Positions 1 to 33,664 of a stretch of DNA of 34,598 nucleotides are shown here, piece by piece. The translations under genes and the position numbers were made by a program. Every line of letters begins with the position of its first letter. Within the stretch, counting starts at the first letter, position 1. The notes below the pieces were generated by a model. The model ran no database searches. It saw nothing but the letters and a program-made list of their open reading frames with translations, and was not told the origin of the DNA. Source of the DNA: a virus (Duplodnaviria > Heunggongvirae > Uroviricota > Caudoviricetes). Location of the stretch: the IMG/VR virus record IMGVR_UViG_2541047807_000005; one strand, given 5' to 3'.

Positions 1-1038
1 TTACGGGGTAATGCCAACCGCTGCCGCCACTTTGTCGCCACTTGGCAGCGTTGCCAGAGGATTGAAACGGAGCGCCGTTTCCAGATGTGCGTAACGCATA
101 GTCATTTTTATATCGTGGTGTCCGAGAATTTTTTGTAAGGCCAGAATGTTTCCACCCGACATCATGAAGTGCGCCGCAAACGTATGGCGCAGAACGTGTG
201 TGAGTTGACCGCGAGGGAGCACGATAGACGTTTTTTCCATCACGGATAAAAATTGAAAATAGCAGTCTGTGAAGAAATTGAACCCATCAAGCGCCATGAT
301 CTCTTCGTAAAGCTCTTTACTGATAGGGATGCTTCTGTTTTTCTTCCCCTTCGTTCTTACAAAGGTAATTCGGTATTTGGTCACCTGTGAGCGGGTAAGA
401 TTTACGGCTTCACGCCAGCGTGCGCCTGTGCTTAAGCATATCTTAACTACCAGTGCCAGTATTGGGTCCTGACGTTTGCAATCAGCCAGCAATTCAACAA
501 TCTGCTCATGGGTAAGCCATGCCATCTCTTTTTCTGCGATGGTGAATTTTCGCATGTTCTCCAGTGGGTTCGGATACGACCATTCGCCCAGGCGGGATAG
601 TTCGCTAAAAACACTACTTAGATAGCTTTGCTCCAGGTTAACGGTGACCGGGCTTGCTCCTTTTTTCCATTTCTCGCTGAAGTAGATCTCACCTGTCAGG
701 CGTTTATCTCGATAGTGGGCAAACATTTTAGAGGTGAGATCGGTTGCAAGGGGATTGCCCAGAGCGTCAACCATCAGCAGTAATTTGTCATAGACATGCT
801 GCCCAGCAGTCAGAGATTTACCATGTAGTTTGAACCATAGTTCAACCAAGTCTTTCAGTGTTCGACGATCCACTGATTCACCCAGCCAGGGCTTTGCTTC
901 GGTTTCTTCCATCGTGTGACGCTCAAAAGCCAGAGCTTCGCCTTTGGTGGCGAATTGTTTACGCACACGACGCCCACTACGTCCGGCGGGGTAACATTCG
1001 CAAAGCCATTTTCCTGTGGTGAGTTTTCGTACTGCCAT
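1..1038 (-). CDS. int: Tyrosine integrase, P2/186 Int family
   Basis: ORF track (1..1194); N-terminus MAVRKLTTGKW aligns with P2 Int start, so start set at ATG 1038; C-terminal HxxR...Y recombinase region (LRHTFAAHFMMSGGNILALQKILGHHDIKMTMRYAH). Confidence 0.9.
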   Translation of the reverse strand: MAVRKLTTGKWLCECYPAGRSGRRVRKQFATKGEALAFERHTMEETEAKPWLGESVDRRTLKDLVELWFKLHGKSLTAGQHVYDKLLLMVDALGNPLATDLTSKMFAHYRDKRLTGEIYFSEKWKKGASPVTVNLEQSYLSSVFSELSRLGEWSYPNPLENMRKFTIAEKEMAWLTHEQIVELLADCKRQDPILALVVKICLSTGARWREAVNLTRSQVTKYRITFVRTKGKKNRSIPISKELYEEIMALDGFNFFTDCYFQFLSVMEKTSIVLPRGQLTHVLRHTFAAHFMMSGGNILALQKILGHHDIKMTMRYAHLETALRFNPLATLPSGDKVAAAVGITP

Positions 1039-1226
1039 AAAAAATGCCCTCCAGTGGAGAGCATTTTTACTGTATGTATAACCAGTGTCAATGTATGAAA
1101 TCCTGTGACGATACATCTCACTGAAGCCATAATGAAGTTGGCTATTCTTTTTGCTATGTGAGTATGTAAATTTTGCGGCTAACCTGCGGCTCATTTTTAT
1201 TTTAGGCGCAGATATAAAAGCAAAAG

Positions 1227-1418
1227 TTATCGTGAGTTTTTAGTACAGATTTTTTTGGATTTACTAATAGTTCCATCATTGCAAACGAATTTGCCATCTG
1301 AGGTACAGTGAGAAACACCTCCCTTTTTCCCTGAGCAGGGATAATTTCTAGCATAGGTAGTTAGTGGGTTTAATAACAAAGAACATGACAAAACCACAAA
1401 AAATACCTTACCAAGCAT
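1227..1418 (-). CDS. Small predicted secreted Cys-rich protein (63 aa), unknown function
   Basis: ORF with GGAGG RBS about 7 nt upstream; hydrophobic signal-peptide-like N-terminus then 4 Cys; AT-rich; sits between cI and int. Confidence 0.45.
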
Positions 1419-1433: not shown

Positions 1434-2090
1434 CTATTTAACATACTTGACTGTTAAACTTATAATTTTACCAATTATTTCAATGTCTTCTATCTTGCAT
1501 TCGAAGGCTCTGTTTCCACCCTCGACGAAGATTCTTCCACCGGGTAAACGAGTAATGTCACGGATCGTTATTTCGCCATCAATACTTATTATCCATTTAC
1601 CATCACGTATATCATCAAATTCTTTATCACAAATAAATTCAGAATTGTTATCTGTGATGACAAAAGGTTTTTTAAACGTAGAGGGTAGAAATCCCTTATC
1701 AAAAATATAAAAACCGTCTTTCTGCAATGCTCCATCAGACAATAAATATTTTTCTACTTCTATAGTATTTGTATTTGCTGATGCTTGCTTTGAACCATGC
1801 CCTGTTGTTAGCCAATTAAGCGAGGTGCCCGTTTCAAGGGCGCACTGGATTACCCAATCTGCTGGAAAAATATCACGCATATAGCGCGTTGCCATGGTGC
1901 TCTTAGAAACACCTAAATGATCACAGAGAGCCTGACGGGTACCGAACCCATATGCTTCAACTAAACGTTCTATGGCTTTCTTACCGCCGCTATTGAAATC
2001 CACAAGTCCTCCAAAGAAATCCAAAATTCGTTGACAGATTCCAAAAGCGATCTTAAGGTTGAACCAGAAGTGTTCTTTTGGAGCCTTCAC
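1434..2090 (-). CDS. cI: CI-like immunity repressor (186 cI family); start codon uncertain
   Basis: Position divergent from apl/cox and upstream of int; N-terminal HTH-like region (ERLVEAYGFGTRQALCDHLGVSKSTMATRY...ALETG) recalled as similar to 186 CI. Confidence 0.7.
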   Translation of the reverse strand: MKAPKEHFWFNLKIAFGICQRILDFFGGLVDFNSGGKKAIERLVEAYGFGTRQALCDHLGVSKSTMATRYMRDIFPADWVIQCALETGTSLNWLTTGHGSKQASANTNTIEVEKYLLSDGALQKDGFYIFDKGFLPSTFKKPFVITDNNSEFICDKEFDDIRDGKWIISIDGEITIRDITRLPGGRIFVEGGNRAFECKIEDIEIIGKIISLTVKYVK

Positions 2091-4266: not shown

Positions 4267-5120
4267 GCACCATCCTGAAATGGGCGGGTAATAAAACCAC
4301 CATTATGTCCGAACTGAAAAAATACCTTCCTGCTGGCACGCGACTGGTTGAACCTTTCGCGGGTTCTTGTGCTGTGATGATGGAGACGGATTACCCCAGC
4401 TATCTGGTTGCGGATATTAATCCTGATTTAATCAACCTCTATAAAAAGGTTGCTGCTGATTGTGAGGCGTTTATATCTCGTGCCAGAGCTTTATTTGAGG
4501 AAGCAAACAGAGAGGTGGCTTATTACAACATAAGGCAGGAGTTTAATTACTCCACTGAAATTACTGATTTCATGAAAGCGGTATATTTTCTGTATCTCAA
4601 TCGTCATGGTTACCGTGGGCTATGTCGCTATAACAAGAGCGGGTATTTCAACATTCCCTACGGTAATTATAAAAATCCGTATTTCCCTGAAAAAGAAATT
4701 CGCGCATTTGCAGAGAAAGCCCAGCGGGCAACGTTTATCTGCGCCAGCTTTGATGAAACGCTGGCGATGTTGAAGGCGGGGGATGTGGTGTATTGCGATC
4801 CGCTTTATGACGGTACGTTTTCCGGCTATCACACTGATGGCTTCACTGAAGATGACCAGTATCACCTGGCATCCGTTCTTGAACATCGATCATCTGAAGG
4901 TCATCCGGTCATTGTTTCTAACAGTGACACATCCCTGATCCGTTCGCTGTATCGCAATTTTACTCACCACTACATCAAGGCAAAACGCAGCATCGGCGTG
5001 GCAGCTGGTGAGAGTAAATCTGCAACAGAAATCATCGCTGTTTCCGGGCCGCGCTGCTGGGTAGGATTTGATCCTTTGCGTGGCGTGGATTGTTCCGTCG
5101 TGTACGGAGTGCGTGCATGA
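4263..5120 (+). CDS. dam: Dam-family DNA N6-adenine methyltransferase
   Basis: N-terminus LKWAGNK...EPFAGSCAV (SAM-binding) and catalytic-motif region VVYCDPLY; ATG 4263 with GGAGG RBS. Confidence 0.85.
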
Positions 5121-7531
5121 GCCATGCTGATATGAACAACTGCAGCGGCTTTAACGAGGTCGCCGCAGCATTCTCATGGAACAGCCCGAAAAAGGCCATT
5201 AACCCTTATCTGGACCCGGCGGAAGTTGCGCCGGTTTCTGCGCTTTCAAACCTGATCACTCTGTACGCTGCCGATAACGAGCAGGAACAACTGCGCCGCG
5301 AGGCACTGAGTGATCAGGTCTGGGAGCGTTATTTCTTTAATGAATCCCGTGATCCTGTCCAACGCGAAATGGAGCAGGATAAGCTAATTAGCCGGGCAAA
5401 GCTGGCGCATGAGCAGCAGCGTTTTAATCCAGACATGGCCATTCTGGCGGACGTCAACGCCCAGCCTTCCCATATCAGCAAGCCGCTGATGCAACGTATT
5501 AAATACTTCAGCAGCCTGGGCAGGCCAAAGGCTTATTCCCGCTATTTGCGTGAGACGATTAAGCCATGCTTGGAACGACTGGAGCATGTACGCGACAGTC
5601 AGCTATCCACTTCTTTTCGCTTTATGGCAAGCCATGAAGGGCTGGACGGCCTGCTGATCCTGCCTGAAATGAGTCAGGATCAGGTGAAACGCCTGTCCAC
5701 CTTGGTAGCTGCGCATATGAGCATGTGCCTTGATACAGCTTGTGGCGATTTGTATGCCACCGATGATGTTACGCCAGAAGAAATCCGCAAGACATGGGAA
5801 AAGGTGGCAGCGGAAACCCTGCGTCTGGATGTTATCCCGCCTGCGTTTGAGCAACTTTGTCGGAAAAGAAACCGCCGTAAACCCGTGCCTTATGAACTCA
5901 TTCCGGGTTCGCTGGCGCGTATGTTATGCGCCGACTGGTGGTATCGGAAATTATGGAAGATGCGTTGCGAATGGAGGGAAGAGCAGTTGCGTGCTGTTTG
6001 CCTGGTCAGCAAAAAAGCATCTCCCTATGTCAGCTATGAAGCCGTGATGCATAAACGTGAGCAGCGCCGTAAGTCGCTGGAGTTTTTCCGTTCTCATGAA
6101 CTGGTGAACGAAGACGGCGACACGCTGGATATGGAAGACGTGGTAAACGCCAGCAGCAGCAACCCTGCGCATCGCCGCAATGAGATGATGGCCTGTGTTA
6201 AAGGTCTGGAGCTTATCGCGGAAATGCGTGGTGACTGCGCCGTTTTCTACACCATCACCTGTCCGTCACGTTTCCATTCCACGCTAAATAACGGCAGGCC
6301 CAACCCGACCTGGACAAATGCGACGGTAAGACAAAGCAGTGATTATCTGGTCGGTATGTTTGCTGCATTTCGTAAGGCGATGCACAAAGCCGGATTACGC
6401 TGGTATGGCGTGCGGGTGGCTGAGCCGCATCATGACGGTACAGTTCACTGGCACCTGTTGTGTTTTATGCGCAAAAAAGATCGCCGCGCCATTACTGCTT
6501 TGTTGCGTAAGTTTGCCATTCGTGAAGACCGCGAGGAGCTGGGTAATAACACGGAACCACGCTTTAAGTCTGAGCTGATAAACCCGCGCAAAGGTACGCC
6601 AACAAGCTACATCGCGAAATACATCAGTAAGAACATTGACGGGCGTGGTCTGGCTGGCGAGATCAGCAAGGAAACGGGTAAATCCCTGCGTGATAACGCC
6701 GAATACGTTAATGCCTGGGCGTCTTTGCATCGTGTTCAGCAATTCCGCTTCTTTGGCATTCCGGGGCGTCAGGCTTACCGTGAACTGCGATTGCTGGCTG
6801 GTCAGGCGGCAAGGCAACAGGGGGACAAAAAAGCAGGTGCGCCGGTACTGGATAACCCGCGCCTTGATGCCATCCTGGCTGCCGCTGATGCTGGCTGTTT
6901 TGCCACCTACATCATGAAGCAGGGCGGCGTACTGGTTCCCCGCAAATATCACCTCATCAGAACCGCTTATGAAATCAACGAAGAGCCGACCGCCTATGGC
7001 GATCACGGTATTCGTATTTATGGCATCTGGTCACCCATTGCAGAGGGCAAGATCTGCACTCATGCGGTGAAGTGGAAAATGGTTCGTAAGGCCGTTGACA
7101 TTCAGGAGGCGGCAGCCGACCAGGGCGCTTGCGCCCCTTGGACTCGTGGCAATAACTGTCCCCTTGCTGAAAATTTGAACCAGCAGGAGAAAGATAAATC
7201 AGCTGATGGGGACACCAGAACGGACATTATCTGCATGGATGACAAGGAGTTGCACGATTATCTGCACAGTATGAGCAAAAAAGATCGCCGGGAACTGGCA
7301 GCAAGGTTACGCCTGGTGAAACCGAAACGGCGTAAAGACTACAAACAGCGAATTACAGACCATCAGCGACAGCAGCTTGTCTATGAACTGAAGTCCAGAG
7401 GATTTGATGGCAGCGAGAAAGAGGTCGAGTTGCTCCTTCGCGGTGGCAGTATTCCGTCAGGAGCAGGCCTGCGTATCTTCTATCGGAACCAGCGTCTGCA
7501 GGAGGATGATAAATGGCGGAACATGTATTAA
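5117..7531 (+). CDS. A: Replication initiation endonuclease gpA (rolling-circle Rep)
   Basis: 804 aa; HUH-like motif VHWHLL and active-site Tyr motif YIAKYISKN; synteny after early operon. Confidence 0.9.
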
Positions 7532-7623
7532 TTACGCTGATTAACAATTCGTGCTCTTAATAATACCAGGCATATCAGGCTGATGAACGTAAAAAAACGT
7601 TTTACATCAGTAAGATTATTATA

Positions 7624-7643
7624 TACTGCAAATATAAACAGTG
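7624..7643 (+). promoter_or_regulatory. Candidate LexA (SOS) operator TACTGCAAATATAAACAGTG
   Basis: CTGC-N8-ACAG, one mismatch to CTGT-N8-ACAG consensus, ~45 bp upstream of the 7685 start; analogous to the LexA-controlled tum promoter of phage 186. Confidence 0.55.
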
Positions 7644-7684
7644 GTTATGTATACAGTATTGCTTGTGGTGTCATAGGAGGAAAA

Positions 7685-7873
7685 ATGCAGGACTATTTTT
7701 TGGAGTCTTTAAAGCTCCAGCGCATTGATTTTTTTCTTAAGCTTGTAGCGGCTAGTGAGTGTAGTGATGAAGAGAAGGGGCTGGCTTTGCAGTGGGTTTC
7801 TGAACTAACAGATGAACTCATGGCAAAAATCAGAACCCACGAATACAACCGCTCAATGGATGTCATCAGTTGA
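7685..7873 (+). CDS. Small protein (62 aa), possible Tum-like SOS-induced antirepressor
   Basis: ATG 7685 with strong AGGAGG RBS (7675-7680); downstream of LexA-box-like site; position after gene A as in 186 tum. Confidence 0.45.
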   Translation: MQDYFLESLKLQRIDFFLKLVAASECSDEEKGLALQWVSELTDELMAKIRTHEYNRSMDVIS

Positions 7874-7883
7874 GGTGACTTTT

Positions 7884-8117
7884 ATGCGCATTGAAATAAT
7901 GATCGATAAAGAGCAGAAGATTAGCCAGTCTATCCTGGACGCCCTTGAATCCGAGCTTTACCGCAATCTGCGCCCCCTGTATCCAAAAACGGTAATTCGT
8001 ATCCGCAAAGGTAGCTCTAACGGTGTGGAACTGACCGGACTGCAACTGGACGAAGAAAGAAAACAAGTGATGAAAATTATGCAGAAGGTGTGGGAAGACG
8101 ACAGCTGGCTGCATTAG
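7884..8117 (+). CDS. DinI-like protein
   Basis: 77 aa, MRIEIMIDKEQ...KVWEDDSWLH resembles DinI family; GAGGTGA RBS. Confidence 0.8.
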   Translation: MRIEIMIDKEQKISQSILDALESELYRNLRPLYPKTVIRIRKGSSNGVELTGLQLDEERKQVMKIMQKVWEDDSWLH

Positions 8118-8245
8118 AGAACGTTGCGGATGATAAAACTAGCTTTTACCATCTGCAAGGCTGAACAACGATTGTAGCGAGGTGTTAGGTGGTTCAAAAG
8201 TAAAGCGGTTATTTTGCCCGTAAAAGTGAACCACCTGTATCTTGA

Positions 8246-8986
8246 TCAGTTTTCTTTGAATTTTTCACTTAATCGTTTCGTCAATACTTCGACAGATTCT
8301 TTGCGACCGGAGAACAAGTCATTGACGACGTACTCCATAATCTCAAAAGCATCCTCAATGTCTTTGACTTTTACTTCATCGTAGGTATGGCTTCCGGCAT
8401 TTCCTAAAAATTTAATTGCCATAAGAGGTCTTGAAAACGATCCGTATAATTCAGGTAGCATCCCTAAACGGTGGTGTAGAGTTATGCGTTTGCCATTATC
8501 ATTACGTTCAGCTACATCCATAGCGGTTAGCATTCTTTCAACTGAAATTCGAATTAGGTTTGCTGCTGCGCCAGGCTGTATTAGGAAAATGGAAAATGAG
8601 GCTTCAAGCGGTTCGGTAATTTCTTCTGGGCATTTTTCAGGTATTTCGAAAGGATGCAGTGATGGGTAAAAGGTGAAAGGTCTGTGCCATTGATAGTACT
8701 CAATATCATTTCTTTCTTCATCCCAACCTTGTTCCCATCCACTCTTACCAGTACAGGCCACAACTTCACCACATTGCATTCTTGAACAGCGGGCCATGCA
8801 ACTGAAAATAGATGAATCCATTTCTAGTTCAAACCAATCTTCACTGCGGAATTTTCGGGTATCATGTGTGTCATACGAGACGAAACTTTCTTTAATGATC
8901 TGTAGGGTTTTCTGATTGCAGTTAGGGCAGGGCCACTCAACCTGCATATCGTGGAAAAACGCACCAGAGAGCTTGTGCACAGTCAT
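8246..8986 (-). CDS. Hypothetical Cys-rich protein (246 aa) at the tin/old accessory position; candidate defence gene
   Basis: ORF with GAGGAA RBS; N-terminal CPNC...C-x3-C-x4-C-x5-C cluster; AT-rich versus phage core; opposite strand to gene A. Confidence 0.6.
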   Translation of the reverse strand: MTVHKLSGAFFHDMQVEWPCPNCNQKTLQIIKESFVSYDTHDTRKFRSEDWFELEMDSSIFSCMARCSRMQCGEVVACTGKSGWEQGWDEERNDIEYYQWHRPFTFYPSLHPFEIPEKCPEEITEPLEASFSIFLIQPGAAANLIRISVERMLTAMDVAERNDNGKRITLHHRLGMLPELYGSFSRPLMAIKFLGNAGSHTYDEVKVKDIEDAFEIMEYVVNDLFSGRKESVEVLTKRLSEKFKEN

Positions 8987-9187
8987 TCTTTGTGTTCCTC
9001 ATTTTTATGATTGGTAGGGATTGTATCTTCATACACGATTACAGTTGCATTAAAGATAAGCCATAGCAAGCTACTGGAAAAGAGACGAAACAGCTGGGCA
9101 TATCAGATGTTTTTTCTTAAGGTAAGTTGTTGTGCATGCCTATACTGCATGAGATTGCATGATCGTTTGAGGATCGTTATTGCTAAG

Positions 9188-9212
9188 GCCCACCAGAACT
9201 GGCGGGCTTTTG
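9188..9212 (+). terminator. Terminator-like hairpin (GCCCACCAG-aa-CTGGCGGGC then TTTT)
   Basis: 9-bp GC-rich stem with one mismatch followed by T run, inside the cos-containing intergenic region. Confidence 0.35.
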
Positions 9213-9256
9213 CGTAGAGCATGCAGGTGCATGAAAACAACTACATAAAGCGGGCA

Positions 9257-9275
9257 GGCGTGGCGGGGATACGAT
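9257..9275. other. Candidate cos cohesive-end sequence GGCGTGGCGGGGATACGAT
   Basis: Matches the 19-nt P2/186 cohesive end as I recall it (GGCG[A/T]GGCGGGGAAAGCA[C/T]) at about 14 to 16 of 19 positions; located upstream of portal Q as expected. Confidence 0.5.
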
Positions 9276-9344
9276 TGCGCGCAGAAGATTATTATTGGTA
9301 CACTGTCGGTGACTCTCTACGCAGATCTTACACATTAATTTCTA

Positions 9345-10157
9345 ATGGGGCATGCTATGATCTTTCTAAGTCATAATCACCGTGACAAAAGGTTTGTAAG
9401 TGTTATAGCGGAAAAACTAGCAGATGTTTATGGGCGTGATAACGTATTCTACGATTCTTGGTCTATCCAACCCGGAGAGGGTATTATTGACAAGATGAAT
9501 TTAGGAATGGAGAATGTATCGTTCTTTTTCTTTTTTGTCACAGAAAATAGCTTGGCAAGTAACATGGTAAAAATGGAATGGCAAAATGCTTTAATTAAGG
9601 CATCGTCCGGGAAGTGTAAATTTATACCAATACGTTGCCAGAATATATCCTTGCCTGCTCTGCTTACTCAAACGCTATATATTGATCTTTATTCGTATGG
9701 GATCGATGTGGCAATAAGACAAATTATAGATGTCATTAATCAACAAAATACGTATATTCCTAATCCTGAGAAGTATTCAAACCTCTCCTATGATATTAAG
9801 GATGATGATGGGGGTAAGATAGTGAAATTATCAGCAATGGATTTTTTAGAACCAATTGCTGATTTTATGATGATTATGGATAATACAATTAAGCATGATG
9901 ATGTTGTTGTTATGGTCAATGGAGAAAGCTCATTCACTCAGGGGTTTATTGAAAATGCATCTTTAGAAAATGGTATGAAAGTAAGTGGTGCCACTGTTGG
10001 CCTAAATCGGGGGTTAACACCAACGATGCCAATGTATGTTTCTCTTAGGTTAAAGGATGGTTCACCTTTGAATATATTTGCGGTGCTACATCGAGTAAGT
10101 ACCGAGCGTTATGCTCCTATACCACATAAAGCCGATGATGCCTTTAGAGTAAAATAA
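9345..10157 (+). CDS. TIR-domain protein (270 aa) with uncharacterised C-terminal domain; candidate anti-phage effector
   Basis: N-terminal region IFLSHNHRDKRFV...DSWSIQPGEGIIDKM...FFFFFVTENSLASNMVKMEW matches bacterial TIR pattern; AT-rich; between cos-like site and portal gene. Confidence 0.7.
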   Translation: MGHAMIFLSHNHRDKRFVSVIAEKLADVYGRDNVFYDSWSIQPGEGIIDKMNLGMENVSFFFFFVTENSLASNMVKMEWQNALIKASSGKCKFIPIRCQNISLPALLTQTLYIDLYSYGIDVAIRQIIDVINQQNTYIPNPEKYSNLSYDIKDDDGGKIVKLSAMDFLEPIADFMMIMDNTIKHDDVVVMVNGESSFTQGFIENASLENGMKVSGATVGLNRGLTPTMPMYVSLRLKDGSPLNIFAVLHRVSTERYAPIPHKADDAFRVK

Positions 10158-18578: not shown

Positions 18579-19316
18579 TCATTCATTGTCAAATAATTTT
18601 TGCTCTTTCAATATTTGTGTCGAAAAATTATTGCTTATTAATTTTACAAGCTTGCCGCACAAATTAAATGAATATCTAAAATAATCTAAGTCAGGGATGA
18701 GGTATTCTTTTTCTTCAGAGGATATTCCTGCCTCTAATAATTTTTTTTCATATCTTTGGTCCTTCACCCAATTATTATGGACTCCTGTGTCTCGTCTTGC
18801 TTTAATTTCAATGTATTGTTTTAAGAGATGTTCTATTTTCTTTTTGTCTAAGCATAAGAGTTTGCATAATTTATTGATGTATTCTTTGGGTGATCCAAAT
18901 GTGAGACTCGCGACTCCTTCGTTGACTAGATAGTCAAAAAGTTCATCTTCAGATAATGACTTAAACACCCCATAATCACACTTAATTTTATTTAGTTTTT
19001 CTGGATTGATCCTGAAGGTCAACTTCATGATTTCAATAATGTAATCTTCAAATGCTGAAACAAGCGAACTAAAGCACAATGATGGCATATGTTTTGTTAT
19101 TAAATCATGCCGTATTCCTTTATCTGAGATTTCAGGTGAATGTTTTTCCAGAAAGCATTCAAGATTTGTATAAGCCTCATAAAGCTGAGGGTTAGTTTCC
19201 TCATTGGCGTGAGAGATGGCAATGTTTTGAAATATAATTGTTCTGAATAAAATATCAGCTTTAATAAAATATGATGATGTGATTTTATCCAGGAAGAGAT
19301 AATTATCGGAGTGCAT
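18579..19316 (-). CDS. AT-rich moron protein (245 aa) with R-x4-H HEPN-like motif; candidate abortive-infection/toxin RNase
   Basis: ORF opposite to the late operon between S and V; GAGGAA RBS; motif ARRDTGVH at residues 174-180 (coords ~18777-18797); strongly AT-rich. Confidence 0.6.
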   Translation of the reverse strand: MHSDNYLFLDKITSSYFIKADILFRTIIFQNIAISHANEETNPQLYEAYTNLECFLEKHSPEISDKGIRHDLITKHMPSLCFSSLVSAFEDYIIEIMKLTFRINPEKLNKIKCDYGVFKSLSEDELFDYLVNEGVASLTFGSPKEYINKLCKLLCLDKKKIEHLLKQYIEIKARRDTGVHNNWVKDQRYEKKLLEAGISSEEKEYLIPDLDYFRYSFNLCGKLVKLISNNFSTQILKEQKLFDNE

Positions 19317-31743: not shown

Positions 31744-31823
31744 CGCTGCCGCCATTTTGTCGCCATCGTTAAAAAACAGTGCTTCTAACGTCATGATTTT
31801 AAACGGCATAAATTTCAGGCAAC

Positions 31824-31866
31824 AAAAAACCCATCAACCTTGAACCGAAATGGCGGGGTTGATGGG
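31824..31866 (-). terminator. Intrinsic terminator on minus strand, likely for ybjL
   Basis: 10-bp inverted repeat CCCATCAACC / GGTTGATGGG with a U run on the minus strand, ~110 nt past ybjL stop. Confidence 0.5.
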
Positions 31867-31978
31867 CTCCACAAAATGGGGACATCAAAGAAAAGCAGTG
31901 GCACTAATTAAGACTGATGCCCTGCGGAAAAGTTCTGCGGTTGTGCAAAAAAATTTCATTTTCAGGGCAACTTCAGTT

Positions 31979-33664
31979 TTATCCTAATCCTGGCCATACC
32001 ATGACGATGATTGTCCCTGCCAGCGTCAGCAGGACGTTGGCGATTGCATAGGTGCCCGCATAGCCCAGCGCCGGGATGTTACTGCGAGCTGTATCACTGA
32101 TGATCTCCATTGCCGGCGCGCAGGTGCGTGCGCCCATCATTGCGCCGAACAACAGTGCGCGGTTCATTCGCAATACATAAGCACCGAACAAGAAACAGAT
32201 AACCACTGGCACAAGACTGACAATTAATCCGGCAATCAACATCTGACCGCCAATCGTGCCCAGGCCGTTATTAATACCGCTACCGGCGCTCAGACCAACG
32301 CCTGCCATAAACACCATTAAGCCGAACTCTTTCACCATGCTTAATGCACCCTGCGGAATGTAACCGAAGGTCGGGTGGTTAGCGCGCATAAATCCCAGCA
32401 TAATTCCGGCGAATAACAACCCGGCAGCGTTCCCCATGCCGAAACTGAATGTGCTGAACTGGAAGGTGATCATCCCGATCATCAGCCCAATAACAAAGAA
32501 GGCGCAGAATGCCAGCAAGTCAGTGACCTGGCTATGAATCGAGATAAAGCCGATGCGATCGGCGATGGTTTTTACGCGACGGGCATCGCCGCTGACTTGT
32601 AAAACGTCACCTTTGTTAAGCACGACGTTGTCATCTATCGGCATCTCAATCTGGCTACGAATGACGCGGTTAAGGAAGCAACCGTGATCGGTCAACTTCA
32701 GTTGTGCGAGACGTTTGCCAACGGCGTTATGGTTTTTAACGACCACTTCTTCAGTGACGATACGCATGTCGAGAAGGTCACGATCGAAAACTTCTTTGCC
32801 GTTACGGAAGCTGGGATCGAGTCGGGCGTGGGCGTCGGGATAGCCTACCAACGCTATTTCATCGCCCATTTGTAGCACAGCATCACCGTCTGGATTCGCC
32901 AGAATCCCGTTACGTCGAATACGTTCAATGTAGCAGCCAGTTTGTCGATAAATACCCAGTTCACGCAGATTTTTGCCGTCGGTCCAGGCCACCAGCTCCG
33001 GGCCGACGCGGTAGGCGCGGATCACCGGTAAATAAACCTTACGGTTGGCATCAGTGTCCAGGCCACGTTCGCGGGCGATTTGCTGGGCGCTGGTCTGTAA
33101 GTCCTGATGCTGCAATTTCGGCAAGTAACGCGCACCAACAATCAAACTCACCAGACCGATTAAATAGGTTAAGGCATACCCGAGGCTCAGATTATCCAGT
33201 GCCAGTGAGAGCTGCCTGCTTTCCATGCCGGAATGACGCAGTGTATCGCCAGCACCGACCAGAACCGGTGTTGACGTCATAGAGCCAGCTAACATACCGG
33301 CCGTCAGGCCAATATCCCAGCCAAACAGCTTACCTAACCCTAAGGCGATCACCAGCGCACTGCCAACCATCACCAGTGCTAACATTAGGTAATTTTTCCC
33401 ATCGCGAAAAAAAATGGAAAAAAAGTTCGGTCCGGCTTCGACCCCGACGCAGAAAATAAACAGCATAAAGCCAAGATTAAGCGCGTCGGTGTTAATGCTG
33501 AAATGTTGTTGGCCTAATAACAGCGATACGACTAAAACGCCAATGGAATTACCCAGTTGGATCGAACCAAGTCGTAATTTCCCGAGACATAGCCCAAGCG
33601 CGAGGACCACAAATAATAACAGAATGTAATTCCCATTTAACAATTCGGCGACGTTTATATTCAC
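31979..33664 (-). CDS. ybjL: Putative transport protein YbjL (YidE/YbjL family)
   Basis: 561 aa multi-pass membrane protein; sequence recalled as E. coli YbjL. Confidence 0.85.

What the first reader, a model, noticed from the sequence alone, without database searches (positions are those of the whole stretch)
7620..8117. SOS-controlled module: LexA-box-like operator upstream of a small ORF and a DinI-like gene
TACTGCAAATATAAACAGTG (7624-7643) fits CTGT-N8-ACAG with one mismatch and sits upstream of a 62-aa ORF with a strong AGGAGG RBS, followed by a DinI-like gene. This mirrors the LexA-repressed tum operon of phage 186 (antirepressor plus DinI-like orf), implying SOS-inducible prophage induction rather than CI self-cleavage.
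Basis: partly seen in the sequence, partly recalled or inferred. Interest (0 to 1): 0.5.

Follow-up and report, generated by a model that had tools for sequence, protein, structure and literature searches.

The report
LexA-controlled tumA–tumB prophage induction operon
This is the already-described SOS switch of a 186/Fels-2-type P2-like prophage: the host LexA repressor sits on the promoter of a small antirepressor gene (tumA) and a DinI-like gene (tumB), so DNA damage wakes the prophage.

Summary
TACTGCAAATATAAACAGTG lies at 7624-7643. It is followed by AGGAGG, a 62-aa ORF (7685-7873) and a 77-aa DinI-family gene (7884-8117). A position weight matrix built from 18 published E. coli LexA boxes scores it 19.2 bits. 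Random sequence of this length gives 0.06 hits of 15 bits or more.

The window is a 186-like prophage of E. coli with int, a 186-type CI that has no self-cleavage domain, apl, cII and replicase A. The 62-aa protein is 98% identical to Fels-2 STM2728 and to E. coli HS ECHS_RS04495. That HS gene is the published "tum": deleting it, or making LexA non-cleavable, abolishes mitomycin C induction of prophage DuoHS. PSP3 annotates the same split pair as tumA and tumB, and the literature states that Fels-2 and PSP3 carry 186 tum split in two.

Two details are new. This copy has a rare T-to-C change in box 1, which is also the likely -10 element. The strongest LexA box in the window (24.3 bits) sits in a promoter directly upstream of int.

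The parts
7601..7606 (+). Probable -35 hexamer TTTACA of the tumA promoter, equivalent to 186 p95
   Evidence: Conserved as TTTACA (or TTCACA) 17-18 nt upstream of TACTGT in 31 species-level loci and in 186 and PSP3, while the spacer sequence varies freely. The 186 record annotates -35 TTCACA / -10 TACTGT for p95. This is inferred by homology; it was not mapped here.
7624..7629 (+). Probable -10 hexamer, TACTGC here and TACTGT in nearly all relatives; it is the first half of LexA box 1
   Evidence: Same layout as the annotated 186 p95 -10. The T-to-C change at 7629 is rare. The consensus promoter scan did not call this promoter because its criteria were not met.
7624..7643 (.). LexA box 1, TACTGCAAATATAAACAGTG
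   Evidence: PWM score 19.2 bits; 25.1 bits with the common T allele. A homologous box is present upstream of tumA in 31 of 32 species-level loci.
7639..7658 (.). LexA box 2, CAGTGGTTATGTATACAGTA, overlapping box 1 with a 15-bp offset
   Evidence: PWM score 17.0 bits. It is present at exactly +15 in 22 of 32 species-level loci. In 123 IMG/VR loci the central bases vary while the CAG is almost invariant. The geometry and near-identical sequence are found in the double SOS box of a colicin-like bacteriocin promoter.
7675..7680 (+). Shine-Dalgarno AGGAGG for tumA
   Evidence: Read directly from the sequence. Relatives conserve it as AGGAGG(G).
7685..7873 (+). tumA: 62-aa antirepressor, a homologue of the N-terminal half of 186 Tum
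   Evidence: phrog_698 E 3.6e-38. Linked to Tum by PHROG profiles. 98% identical to DuoHS tum (ECHS_RS04495) and Fels-2 STM2728. dN/dS 0.07. AlphaFold2 predicts a two-helix hairpin with pLDDT 90.
7884..8117 (+). tumB: 77-aa DinI-family protein
   Evidence: PF06183 E 1.3e-22. 41% identical to 186 Tum residues 71-145. Matches the solved DinI structure 1GHH at E 3.6e-6. Its own SD, GAGGTGA, lies at 7872-7878.
1434..2090 (-). cI: 186-type immunity repressor and presumed target of TumA; the start codon is uncertain
   Evidence: PF07022 + PF16452 with no Peptidase_S24 domain. 33% identical to 186 CI and 86% to DuoHS CI.

Best explanation
This is the SOS-induction operon (tumA-tumB) of a 186/Fels-2-type P2-like prophage integrated in E. 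coli.

In the lysogen, two LexA dimers occupy two overlapping boxes (7624-7643 and 7639-7658). These cover the -10 element and the start of the transcript from a promoter just downstream of the replicase gene A. DNA damage activates RecA and LexA cleaves itself. The promoter then fires and produces a bicistronic mRNA.

TumA is a 62-aa two-helix protein that corresponds to the N-terminal half of 186 Tum. It binds the 186-type CI repressor and keeps it off its operators, which derepresses the lytic promoter. CI itself has no self-cleavage domain, so induction depends on this antirepressor. TumB is a DinI-like protein that corresponds to the C-terminal half of 186 Tum. It most likely binds RecA filaments and tunes the strength or duration of the SOS signal.

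Shown here: the operator, the genes, their homologies and their conservation. Taken from published work on orthologues: LexA dependence, the requirement for tum, and the action of Tum on CI. Inferred: the promoter hexamers, a transcript start near 7636, cooperative LexA binding, and the role of TumB.
For: - LexA PWM scores and their rarity by chance.
- Phylogenetic footprint: -35 TTTACA, 17 nt, then TACTGT inside box 1, with a second box at +15, across about 15 enterobacterial genera while the spacer and leader vary.
- 186 p95 is annotated with the same layout, a LexA site, and tum 'repressed by LexA; inhibits CI DNA binding'.
- PSP3 is annotated tumA ('similar to 5' end 186 tum; UV induction of prophage') and tumB.
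- Lemire 2011 states that Fels-2 and PSP3 have tum split by a stop codon, with the upstream gene the antirepressor and the downstream gene the DinI homologue, and that Tum binds its repressor and prevents operator binding.
- DuoHS: deletion of ECHS_RS04495 (61/62 identical to the window ORF) or lexA(Ind-) abolishes mitomycin C induction.
- The Fels-2 operon STM2726-2727-2728 responded to the mutagen MX, and STM2727 of that operon rose 5.5- to 14.8-fold.
- Profile links between the ORF and the Tum N-terminus.
- CI domain content.
- Strong purifying selection on the ORF.
Against: - Nothing was measured for this particular copy.
- The copy carries a rare T-to-C change at 7629. It costs about 6 bits of LexA-box score and replaces the last T of the probable -10 (TACTGT to TACTGC), so its inducibility may differ from that of DuoHS or Fels-2.
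- The consensus promoter scan found no sigma-70 promoter in 7400-8400; the promoter assignment rests on homology with 186.
- BLASTP alone sees no similarity between the ORF and 186 Tum.
- No clear intrinsic terminator follows tumB.
Confidence: 0.88

Rival explanations
1. The module is the tumA-tumB operon, but this copy is attenuated. The T-to-C change at 7629 destroys the conserved final T of the -10 hexamer, so the promoter is weak even without LexA and the prophage is poorly inducible or not inducible by SOS.
For: The -10 assignment TACTGT comes from the 186 p95 annotation and from family-wide conservation. The C allele is found in 1 of 123 IMG/VR loci and in at most 18 of 996 E. coli records. 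This fits a derived and possibly mildly deleterious or domesticating change.
Against: - The -10 was not mapped in this lineage. An alternative hexamer, TATACT (7622-7627, 15-nt spacer), is untouched by the change.
- The allele persists in several sequenced strains, including NC101, NGF1 and Rb-23, and arose independently in a Pantoea locus.
- The rest of the prophage looks intact.
Confidence: 0.25
2. The module is the tumA-tumB operon, but the T-to-C change mainly weakens LexA box 1. Repression is then leakier, and spontaneous induction is higher or its threshold lower.
For: The PWM score falls from 25.1 to 19.2 bits. Published single-cell work links weaker predicted LexA affinity to a larger expressing subpopulation.
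Against: Box 2 and the overlapping geometry remain intact. The same base change probably also lowers promoter strength, which would offset any leakiness. At 19.2 bits the box is still within the range of functional E. coli boxes.
Confidence: 0.2
3. The LexA-like sequence is a chance match and the 62-aa ORF is not a functional gene, or it is unrelated to induction, with the DinI-like gene being the only real SOS gene here.
For: No Pfam family covers the ORF, and databases call it a hypothetical protein. BLASTP against 186 Tum finds nothing.
Against: - PWM statistics.
- Conservation of the boxes across genera.
- dN/dS of 0.07.
- PHROG profile links to Tum and TumA.
- The in-frame deletion of the 98%-identical DuoHS gene abolishes induction.
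Confidence: 0.02

Closest known systems
Coliphage 186 p95-tum SOS operon (Lamont 1989; Brumby 1996; Shearwin 1998; as annotated in NC_001317)
   Same: Same position downstream of replicase A. A LexA box overlaps a TACTGT -10. The antirepressor acts on a 186-type CI that cannot cleave itself. A DinI-like moiety is present.
   Different: 186 makes one 146-aa fusion protein (plus internal-start products), has a single LexA box, and has orf97 downstream. Here the two halves are separate genes, there are two overlapping boxes, and the next gene is convergent.
PSP3 tumA/tumB and Fels-2 STM2728 / STM2726.1 (split tum)
   Same: Same two-gene architecture of an antirepressor followed by a DinI homologue. 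Fels-2 STM2728 is 98% identical to the window ORF, and the Fels-2 operator has the same double box.
   Different: PSP3 TumA belongs to a different PHROG family (phrog_1993, about 22% identity) and has a single box. In Fels-2 the common T allele is present and a third gene, STM2726, is co-transcribed.
E. coli HS prophage DuoHS tum (ECHS_RS04495; Phollow study, Nat Microbiol 2025)
   Same: Orthologous prophage at the same chromosomal site next to ybjL. TumA is 61/62 identical, CI is 86% identical, and the operator is the same apart from the T at box 1 position 6 and two central bases of box 2. Dependence on tum and on cleavable LexA is shown experimentally.
   Different: The window has the C allele at 7629 and different cargo genes downstream of tumB.
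Double overlapping SOS boxes of colicin and colicin-like bacteriocin promoters
   Same: Two 20-bp LexA boxes offset by 15 bp. The Fels-2 version differs at only 4 of 35 positions from the operator in front of a colicin-like bacteriocin gene on a 9.3-kb Klebsiella ColRNAI plasmid. The literature describes this arrangement as binding two LexA dimers and giving very tight repression.
   Different: It controls a prophage antirepressor rather than a toxin and lysis operon. In the colicin promoter the boxes lie downstream of the -10, whereas here box 1 contains the probable -10.
Gifsy / Fels-1 antirepressor operons (GfoA, GftA) and N15 AntC
   Same: LexA-controlled small antirepressors act on non-cleavable repressors. 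In the Gifsy phages they are co-transcribed with a dinI homologue.
   Different: They are unrelated proteins acting on different repressors, and the gene order is reversed with dinI first.

Membership tests
186-type LexA-controlled tum antirepressor module | A LexA operator overlaps the promoter of the antirepressor gene | tested here: met
   Two boxes score 19.2 and 17.0 bits. Their position relative to the conserved -35/-10 matches 186 p95.
186-type LexA-controlled tum antirepressor module | The antirepressor is homologous to the N-terminal part of 186 Tum | tested here: met
   Tum residues 1-70 hit phrog_698 at E 5.9e-6. The window ORF hits phrog_8554 at 2.4e-8 and phrog_1993 at 2.2e-3. Pairwise BLASTP is negative.
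186-type LexA-controlled tum antirepressor module | The cognate repressor is a 186-type CI without a RecA-stimulated self-cleavage domain | tested here: met
   PF07022 + PF16452 only; 33% identical to 186 CI.
186-type LexA-controlled tum antirepressor module | Transcription is repressed by LexA and induced by DNA damage | not testable with these tools
   Published for orthologues only: DuoHS lexA(Ind-), induction of the Fels-2 operon gene STM2727 by MX, and 186 p95.
186-type LexA-controlled tum antirepressor module | The antirepressor binds CI and prevents operator binding | not testable with these tools
   Published for 186 Tum. For this family only the genetic requirement in DuoHS is known.
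Split tum (PSP3 tumA/tumB, Fels-2) | The antirepressor half and the DinI-like half are separate adjacent ORFs | tested here: met
   Stop codon at 7871-7873, a 10-nt gap containing an SD, and ATG at 7884. The same arrangement is annotated in PSP3 and Fels-2.
DinI family (PF06183) | Sequence membership above the Pfam gathering score | tested here: met
   80.4 bits against a cutoff of 24.2. Matches PDB entry 1GHH (DinI) at E 3.6e-6.
DinI family (PF06183) | Binds RecA filaments and modulates co-protease activity | not testable with these tools
   Inferred from established knowledge of the family. The 186 record notes that truncated Tum 'modulates SOS induction'.
Colicin-type double SOS operator | Two LexA boxes overlap with a 15-bp offset | tested here: met
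   Boxes at 7624-7643 and 7639-7658. Geometry and near-identical sequence are found in L161 at 1503-1537.
Colicin-type double SOS operator | Two LexA dimers bind together, giving tight repression and delayed induction | not testable with these tools
   The literature statement concerns colicins only.

The most novel reading that the evidence does not exclude
In this prophage lineage LexA may gate induction at two points, not one. Besides tumA-tumB, the integrase gene carries its own LexA-operated promoter on the minus strand: -35 TTGACA at 1091-1086, a LexA box at 1087-1068 (24.3 bits, the best in the window), and -10 AAAAAT at 1068-1063.

This promoter is nested in a strong terminator hairpin (1068-1040, -19.2 kcal/mol) that also buries the int ribosome-binding site. 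Read-through from the cI operon would stop at the hairpin. A transcript started by the SOS promoter, predicted near 1056, would lack the 5' arm of the hairpin and so express int.

The arrangement is conserved in all 43 related loci that share this int type. It is absent from 186 and Fels-2. I found no description of it in the searchable literature. The rare T-to-C operator/promoter allele at 7629 would be a natural variant that retunes the induction threshold.
Probability: 0.45. Interest if true: 0.4.

Novelty: already known. Interest (0 to 1): 0.15.

Why it matters
The module explains how this widespread family of E. coli, Salmonella and Klebsiella P2-like prophages is induced by DNA-damaging antibiotics. 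About one complete E. coli genome in five carries it, including BL21, NC101 and HS.

The practical value is mostly in annotation. The 62-aa antirepressor is labelled 'hypothetical protein' in every database record I saw and has no Pfam family, although the literature calls it tum or tumA. No new biology follows from the finding itself.

The side observations could refine the picture of how excision and derepression are coordinated. These are a LexA-operated int promoter nested in a terminator, and a rare allele that alters both the operator and the probable -10.

Tried and rejected
- BLASTP of the 62-aa ORF against 186 Tum found nothing. The homology was instead established through PHROG profiles.
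- The sigma-70 consensus scan found no promoter in 7400-8400. The promoter was assigned by homology with 186 p95 and by phylogenetic footprinting.
The single protein was used instead.
- Bunny et al. 2002, the primary Fels-2 tum paper, is not held, so its content is cited only through Lemire 2011.
- A PDB sequence search for TumA returned nothing. Foldseek with the AlphaFold2 model returned only generic helical hairpins with E above 0.9, so the fold says nothing about mechanism.
- I first guessed that the nearly invariant TumA targets the conserved C-terminal oligomerisation domain of CI. argues against this. Prophages with identical TumA have CI C-terminal domains as low as 20-40% identical, but N-terminal DNA-binding domains 60-100% identical, so the N-terminal domain is the likelier target.
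- The longer 96-aa reading of the ORF (ATG at 7583, used in some database records) was rejected because it starts upstream of the -35.
- Rfam and tRNA scans found no RNA gene in the module.
- The two hairpins after tumB (8124-8158 and 8187-8236) lack a T-run, so the end of the transcript is undefined.

Full report
**What is in the sequence**

AGGAGG lies at 7675-7680 and an ATG at 7685 opens a 62-codon ORF that ends at 7873. After a 10-nt gap containing GAGGTGA, an ATG at 7884 opens a 77-codon ORF that ends at 8117. The second ORF is a DinI-family protein: Pfam PF06183 at 80.4 bits, E 1.3e-22, with a match to the solved DinI structure 1GHH at E 3.6e-6. The first ORF has no Pfam family but belongs to PHROG phrog_698 (E 3.6e-38, function unknown).

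**Is the LexA box more than chance?**

I built a symmetric position weight matrix from 18 E. coli LexA boxes printed in Table 4 of PMC3009722 and scanned the whole window.

| Site | Sequence | Score (bits) |
|---|---|---|
| 1068-1087 | TACTGTATGTATAACCAGTG | 24.3 |
| 7639-7658 (unreported) | CAGTGGTTATGTATACAGTA | 17.0 |
| Next best hit in the window | – | 10.6 |

Leave-one-out scores of the 18 genuine sites run from 6.7 to 28.2 bits, with a median near 20. In 1000 first-order Markov simulations of 34.6 kb, hits of 15 bits or more occurred 0.056 times per sequence. The two boxes at the finding are offset by 15 bp and share one core base.

**Context**

The window is a 186-like member of the P2-like phages (Peduoviridae), integrated in E. 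coli.
- It carries int (1038-1, minus strand), a CI with the 186-type domains PF07022 and PF16452 and no S24 peptidase domain (1434-2090, minus), an apl-like gene, a CII (PF06892), a Dam methylase and the replicase A (5090-7531). The finding follows, then a short cargo region, then the portal and terminase genes.
- CI is 33% identical to 186 CI and 86% identical to the CI of E. coli HS prophage DuoHS.
- The 714 bp around the finding are 100% identical to E. coli strain Rb-23 and occur at 80% identity or more in 1124 of 5426 complete E. coli genomes, BL21 among them.

**Identity of the module**

The 186 record annotates, in the same position after gene A, the promoter p95 (-35 TTCACA, -10 TACTGT), a LexA site TACTGTATGTTTATACAGTA, and tum. 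The tum entry notes 'expression repressed by LexA; inhibits CI DNA binding', and an internal start gives a 77-aa DinI-like product that 'modulates SOS induction'.

The window's DinI-like protein is 41% identical to Tum residues 71-145. BLASTP finds no similarity between the 62-aa ORF and Tum, but profiles do.
- Tum residues 1-70 hit phrog_698 at E 5.9e-6 over the same columns.
- Both proteins hit phrog_8554 (2.4e-8 and 3.4e-12) and phrog_1993.
- PSP3 TumA is itself phrog_1993 (2.7e-32).

PSP3 annotates tumA ('similar to 5' end 186 tum; UV induction of prophage') followed by tumB (DinI-like). Fels-2 has STM2728, 98% identical to the window ORF, followed by a DinI-family gene noted as similar to PSP3 TumB. 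Lemire et al. [quoted passage not shown] **Direct experimental support from an orthologue**

The Phollow study (PMC12055606) deleted 'tum (locus tag ECHS_RS04495)' in the E. coli HS prophage DuoHS. [quoted passage not shown] ECHS_RS04495 is a 62-codon gene between the replicase and a DinI-like gene. It is 61/62 identical to the window ORF and has the same upstream operator. In a Fels-2 lysogen, the operon STM2726-STM2727-STM2728 responded to the DNA-damaging mutagen MX, and STM2727 of that operon rose 5.5- to 14.8-fold.

**Conservation**

A scan of one genome per species found 33 loci in about 15 enterobacterial genera whose TumA homologues are 71-100% identical.
- 31 of 32 assessable loci have a LexA box of 19-29.5 bits upstream of the start codon.
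- 22 have the second box exactly 15 nt downstream.
- All conserve TTTACA (or TTCACA), a 17-nt spacer of free sequence, and TACTGT, which is the first half of box 1. This is the same layout as 186 p95.
- A DinI-like gene follows in 20 of 33 loci, so tumA also exists alone.
- The ORF is under strong purifying selection: median dN/dS is 0.07 with dS about 1.
- All database names retrieved for the family are 'hypothetical protein' or a spurious 'levan regulatory protein', and no Pfam domain is recorded.

**Operator architecture**

[quoted passage not shown] A search of plasmids with the Fels-2 operator hit over 1200 records. In one, a 9.3-kb Klebsiella ColRNAI plasmid, TACTGTATATAAAACCAGTGGTTATATGTACAGTA lies 43 nt upstream of a colicin-like bacteriocin gene. 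It differs from the Fels-2 operator at 4 of 35 positions. 186 and PSP3 have a single box.

**Mechanism proposed**

Two LexA dimers cover the -10 element and the first 20 or so transcribed bases. The inferred start is near 7636, by analogy with the 186 promoter annotation. RecA-stimulated LexA cleavage frees the promoter.

TumA is predicted by AlphaFold2 to be a two-helix hairpin (helices 2-23 and 28-61, pLDDT 90). It sequesters CI. Prophages with identical TumA have CI N-terminal domains 60-100% identical but C-terminal domains only 20-100% identical. That pattern points to the DNA-binding domain as the contact, and this is an inference. TumB, as a DinI homologue, would modulate RecA co-protease activity; this rests on family knowledge and on the 186 annotation.

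**A peculiarity of this copy**

The C at 7629 is rare.
- 122 of 123 IMG/VR loci have T.
- Only 18 of 996 E. coli records match the window's 43-mer exactly; the rest differ by one base.
- One Pantoea locus has the same change independently.

The change lowers the box 1 score from 25.1 to 19.2 bits and converts the probable -10 from TACTGT to TACTGC. Whether the net effect is leakier repression, a weaker promoter or neither cannot be decided here.

**Verdict**

The module is the known split tum (tumA-tumB) SOS operon of Fels-2/DuoHS-type prophages. Its novelty is nil apart from the annotation gap.

**Outside the finding**

The strongest LexA box in the window lies in a near-consensus promoter directly upstream of int and is nested in a terminator hairpin. 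It is conserved in all 43 loci with this int type and absent from 186 and Fels-2. Two literature searches found no description of it.

Noticed in passing
window 1038-1091 (minus strand): The best LexA box in the window (1068-1087, 24.3 bits) fills the spacer of a near-consensus promoter, TTGACA-17-AAAAAT, which ends 24 nt upstream of the int ATG at 1038. The same stretch folds into a 13-bp terminator-like hairpin, AAAAAUGCUCUCC-ACU-GGAGGGCAUUUUU (-19.2 kcal/mol, z -5.95), that buries the int Shine-Dalgarno. The predicted transcript start near 1056 lies inside the 5' arm, so only SOS-initiated transcripts would escape the hairpin. All 43 related loci with this int type conserve the arrangement, including a variant hairpin with a compensatory change. 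186- and Fels-2-type int genes abut cI and lack it. No paper was found.
   Followed up: partly
window 7629: There is a rare T-to-C allele in LexA box 1, which is also the probable -10. It occurs in 1 of 123 IMG/VR loci and in at most 18 of 996 E. coli records (NC101, NGF1 and Rb-23 among them), and arose independently in a Pantoea conspicua locus (L155). Its functional consequence is unknown.
   Followed up: partly
window 8246-10157: A variable cargo region lies between tumB and the portal gene. It holds a convergent DUF4145 protein (8246-8986, minus; weak PADLOC hit to PD-T7-4) and a TIR-domain protein (9345-10157, plus; PF13676 E 4e-23; weak PADLOC hits to TIR-NLR and ThsB). Similarity to related prophages ends right after the tumB stop codon, as expected for a defence-gene hotspot.
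   Followed up: partly
window 1227-1418 (minus strand): A 63-aa ORF with a signal-peptide-like N-terminus and several cysteines lies between cI and int. 186 and Fels-2 have no gene at this position. DuoHS conserves it. It has no Pfam or PADLOC match.
   Followed up: no
window 18579-19316 (minus strand): A 245-aa ORF on the opposite strand is inserted between the tail-completion and baseplate genes. It has no Pfam or PADLOC match and may be another cargo gene.
   Followed up: no
window 31821-31899 (minus strand) and 31979-33664: The host sRNA gene RybB (Rfam RF00110, 105 bits) and ybjL lie just beyond the right end of the prophage. DuoHS in E. coli HS occupies the same chromosomal site. The window therefore includes about 3 kb of host flank.
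   Followed up: no
loci L128-L160, and L007-L126 versus the window CI (1434-2090): TumA is nearly invariant across prophages whose CI C-terminal domains are only 20-40% identical, while the N-terminal domains stay 60-100% identical. In addition, 13 of 33 species-level loci have tumA without a DinI-like gene, mostly those with a single LexA box.
   Followed up: partly
L161 1503-1537 (Klebsiella aerogenes 9.3-kb ColRNAI plasmid): The double SOS box of a colicin-like bacteriocin promoter is 31/35 identical to the Fels-2 tumA operator. More than 1200 plasmid records carry a close match. This suggests either a shared origin or strong convergence of the 35-bp double operator.
   Followed up: partly
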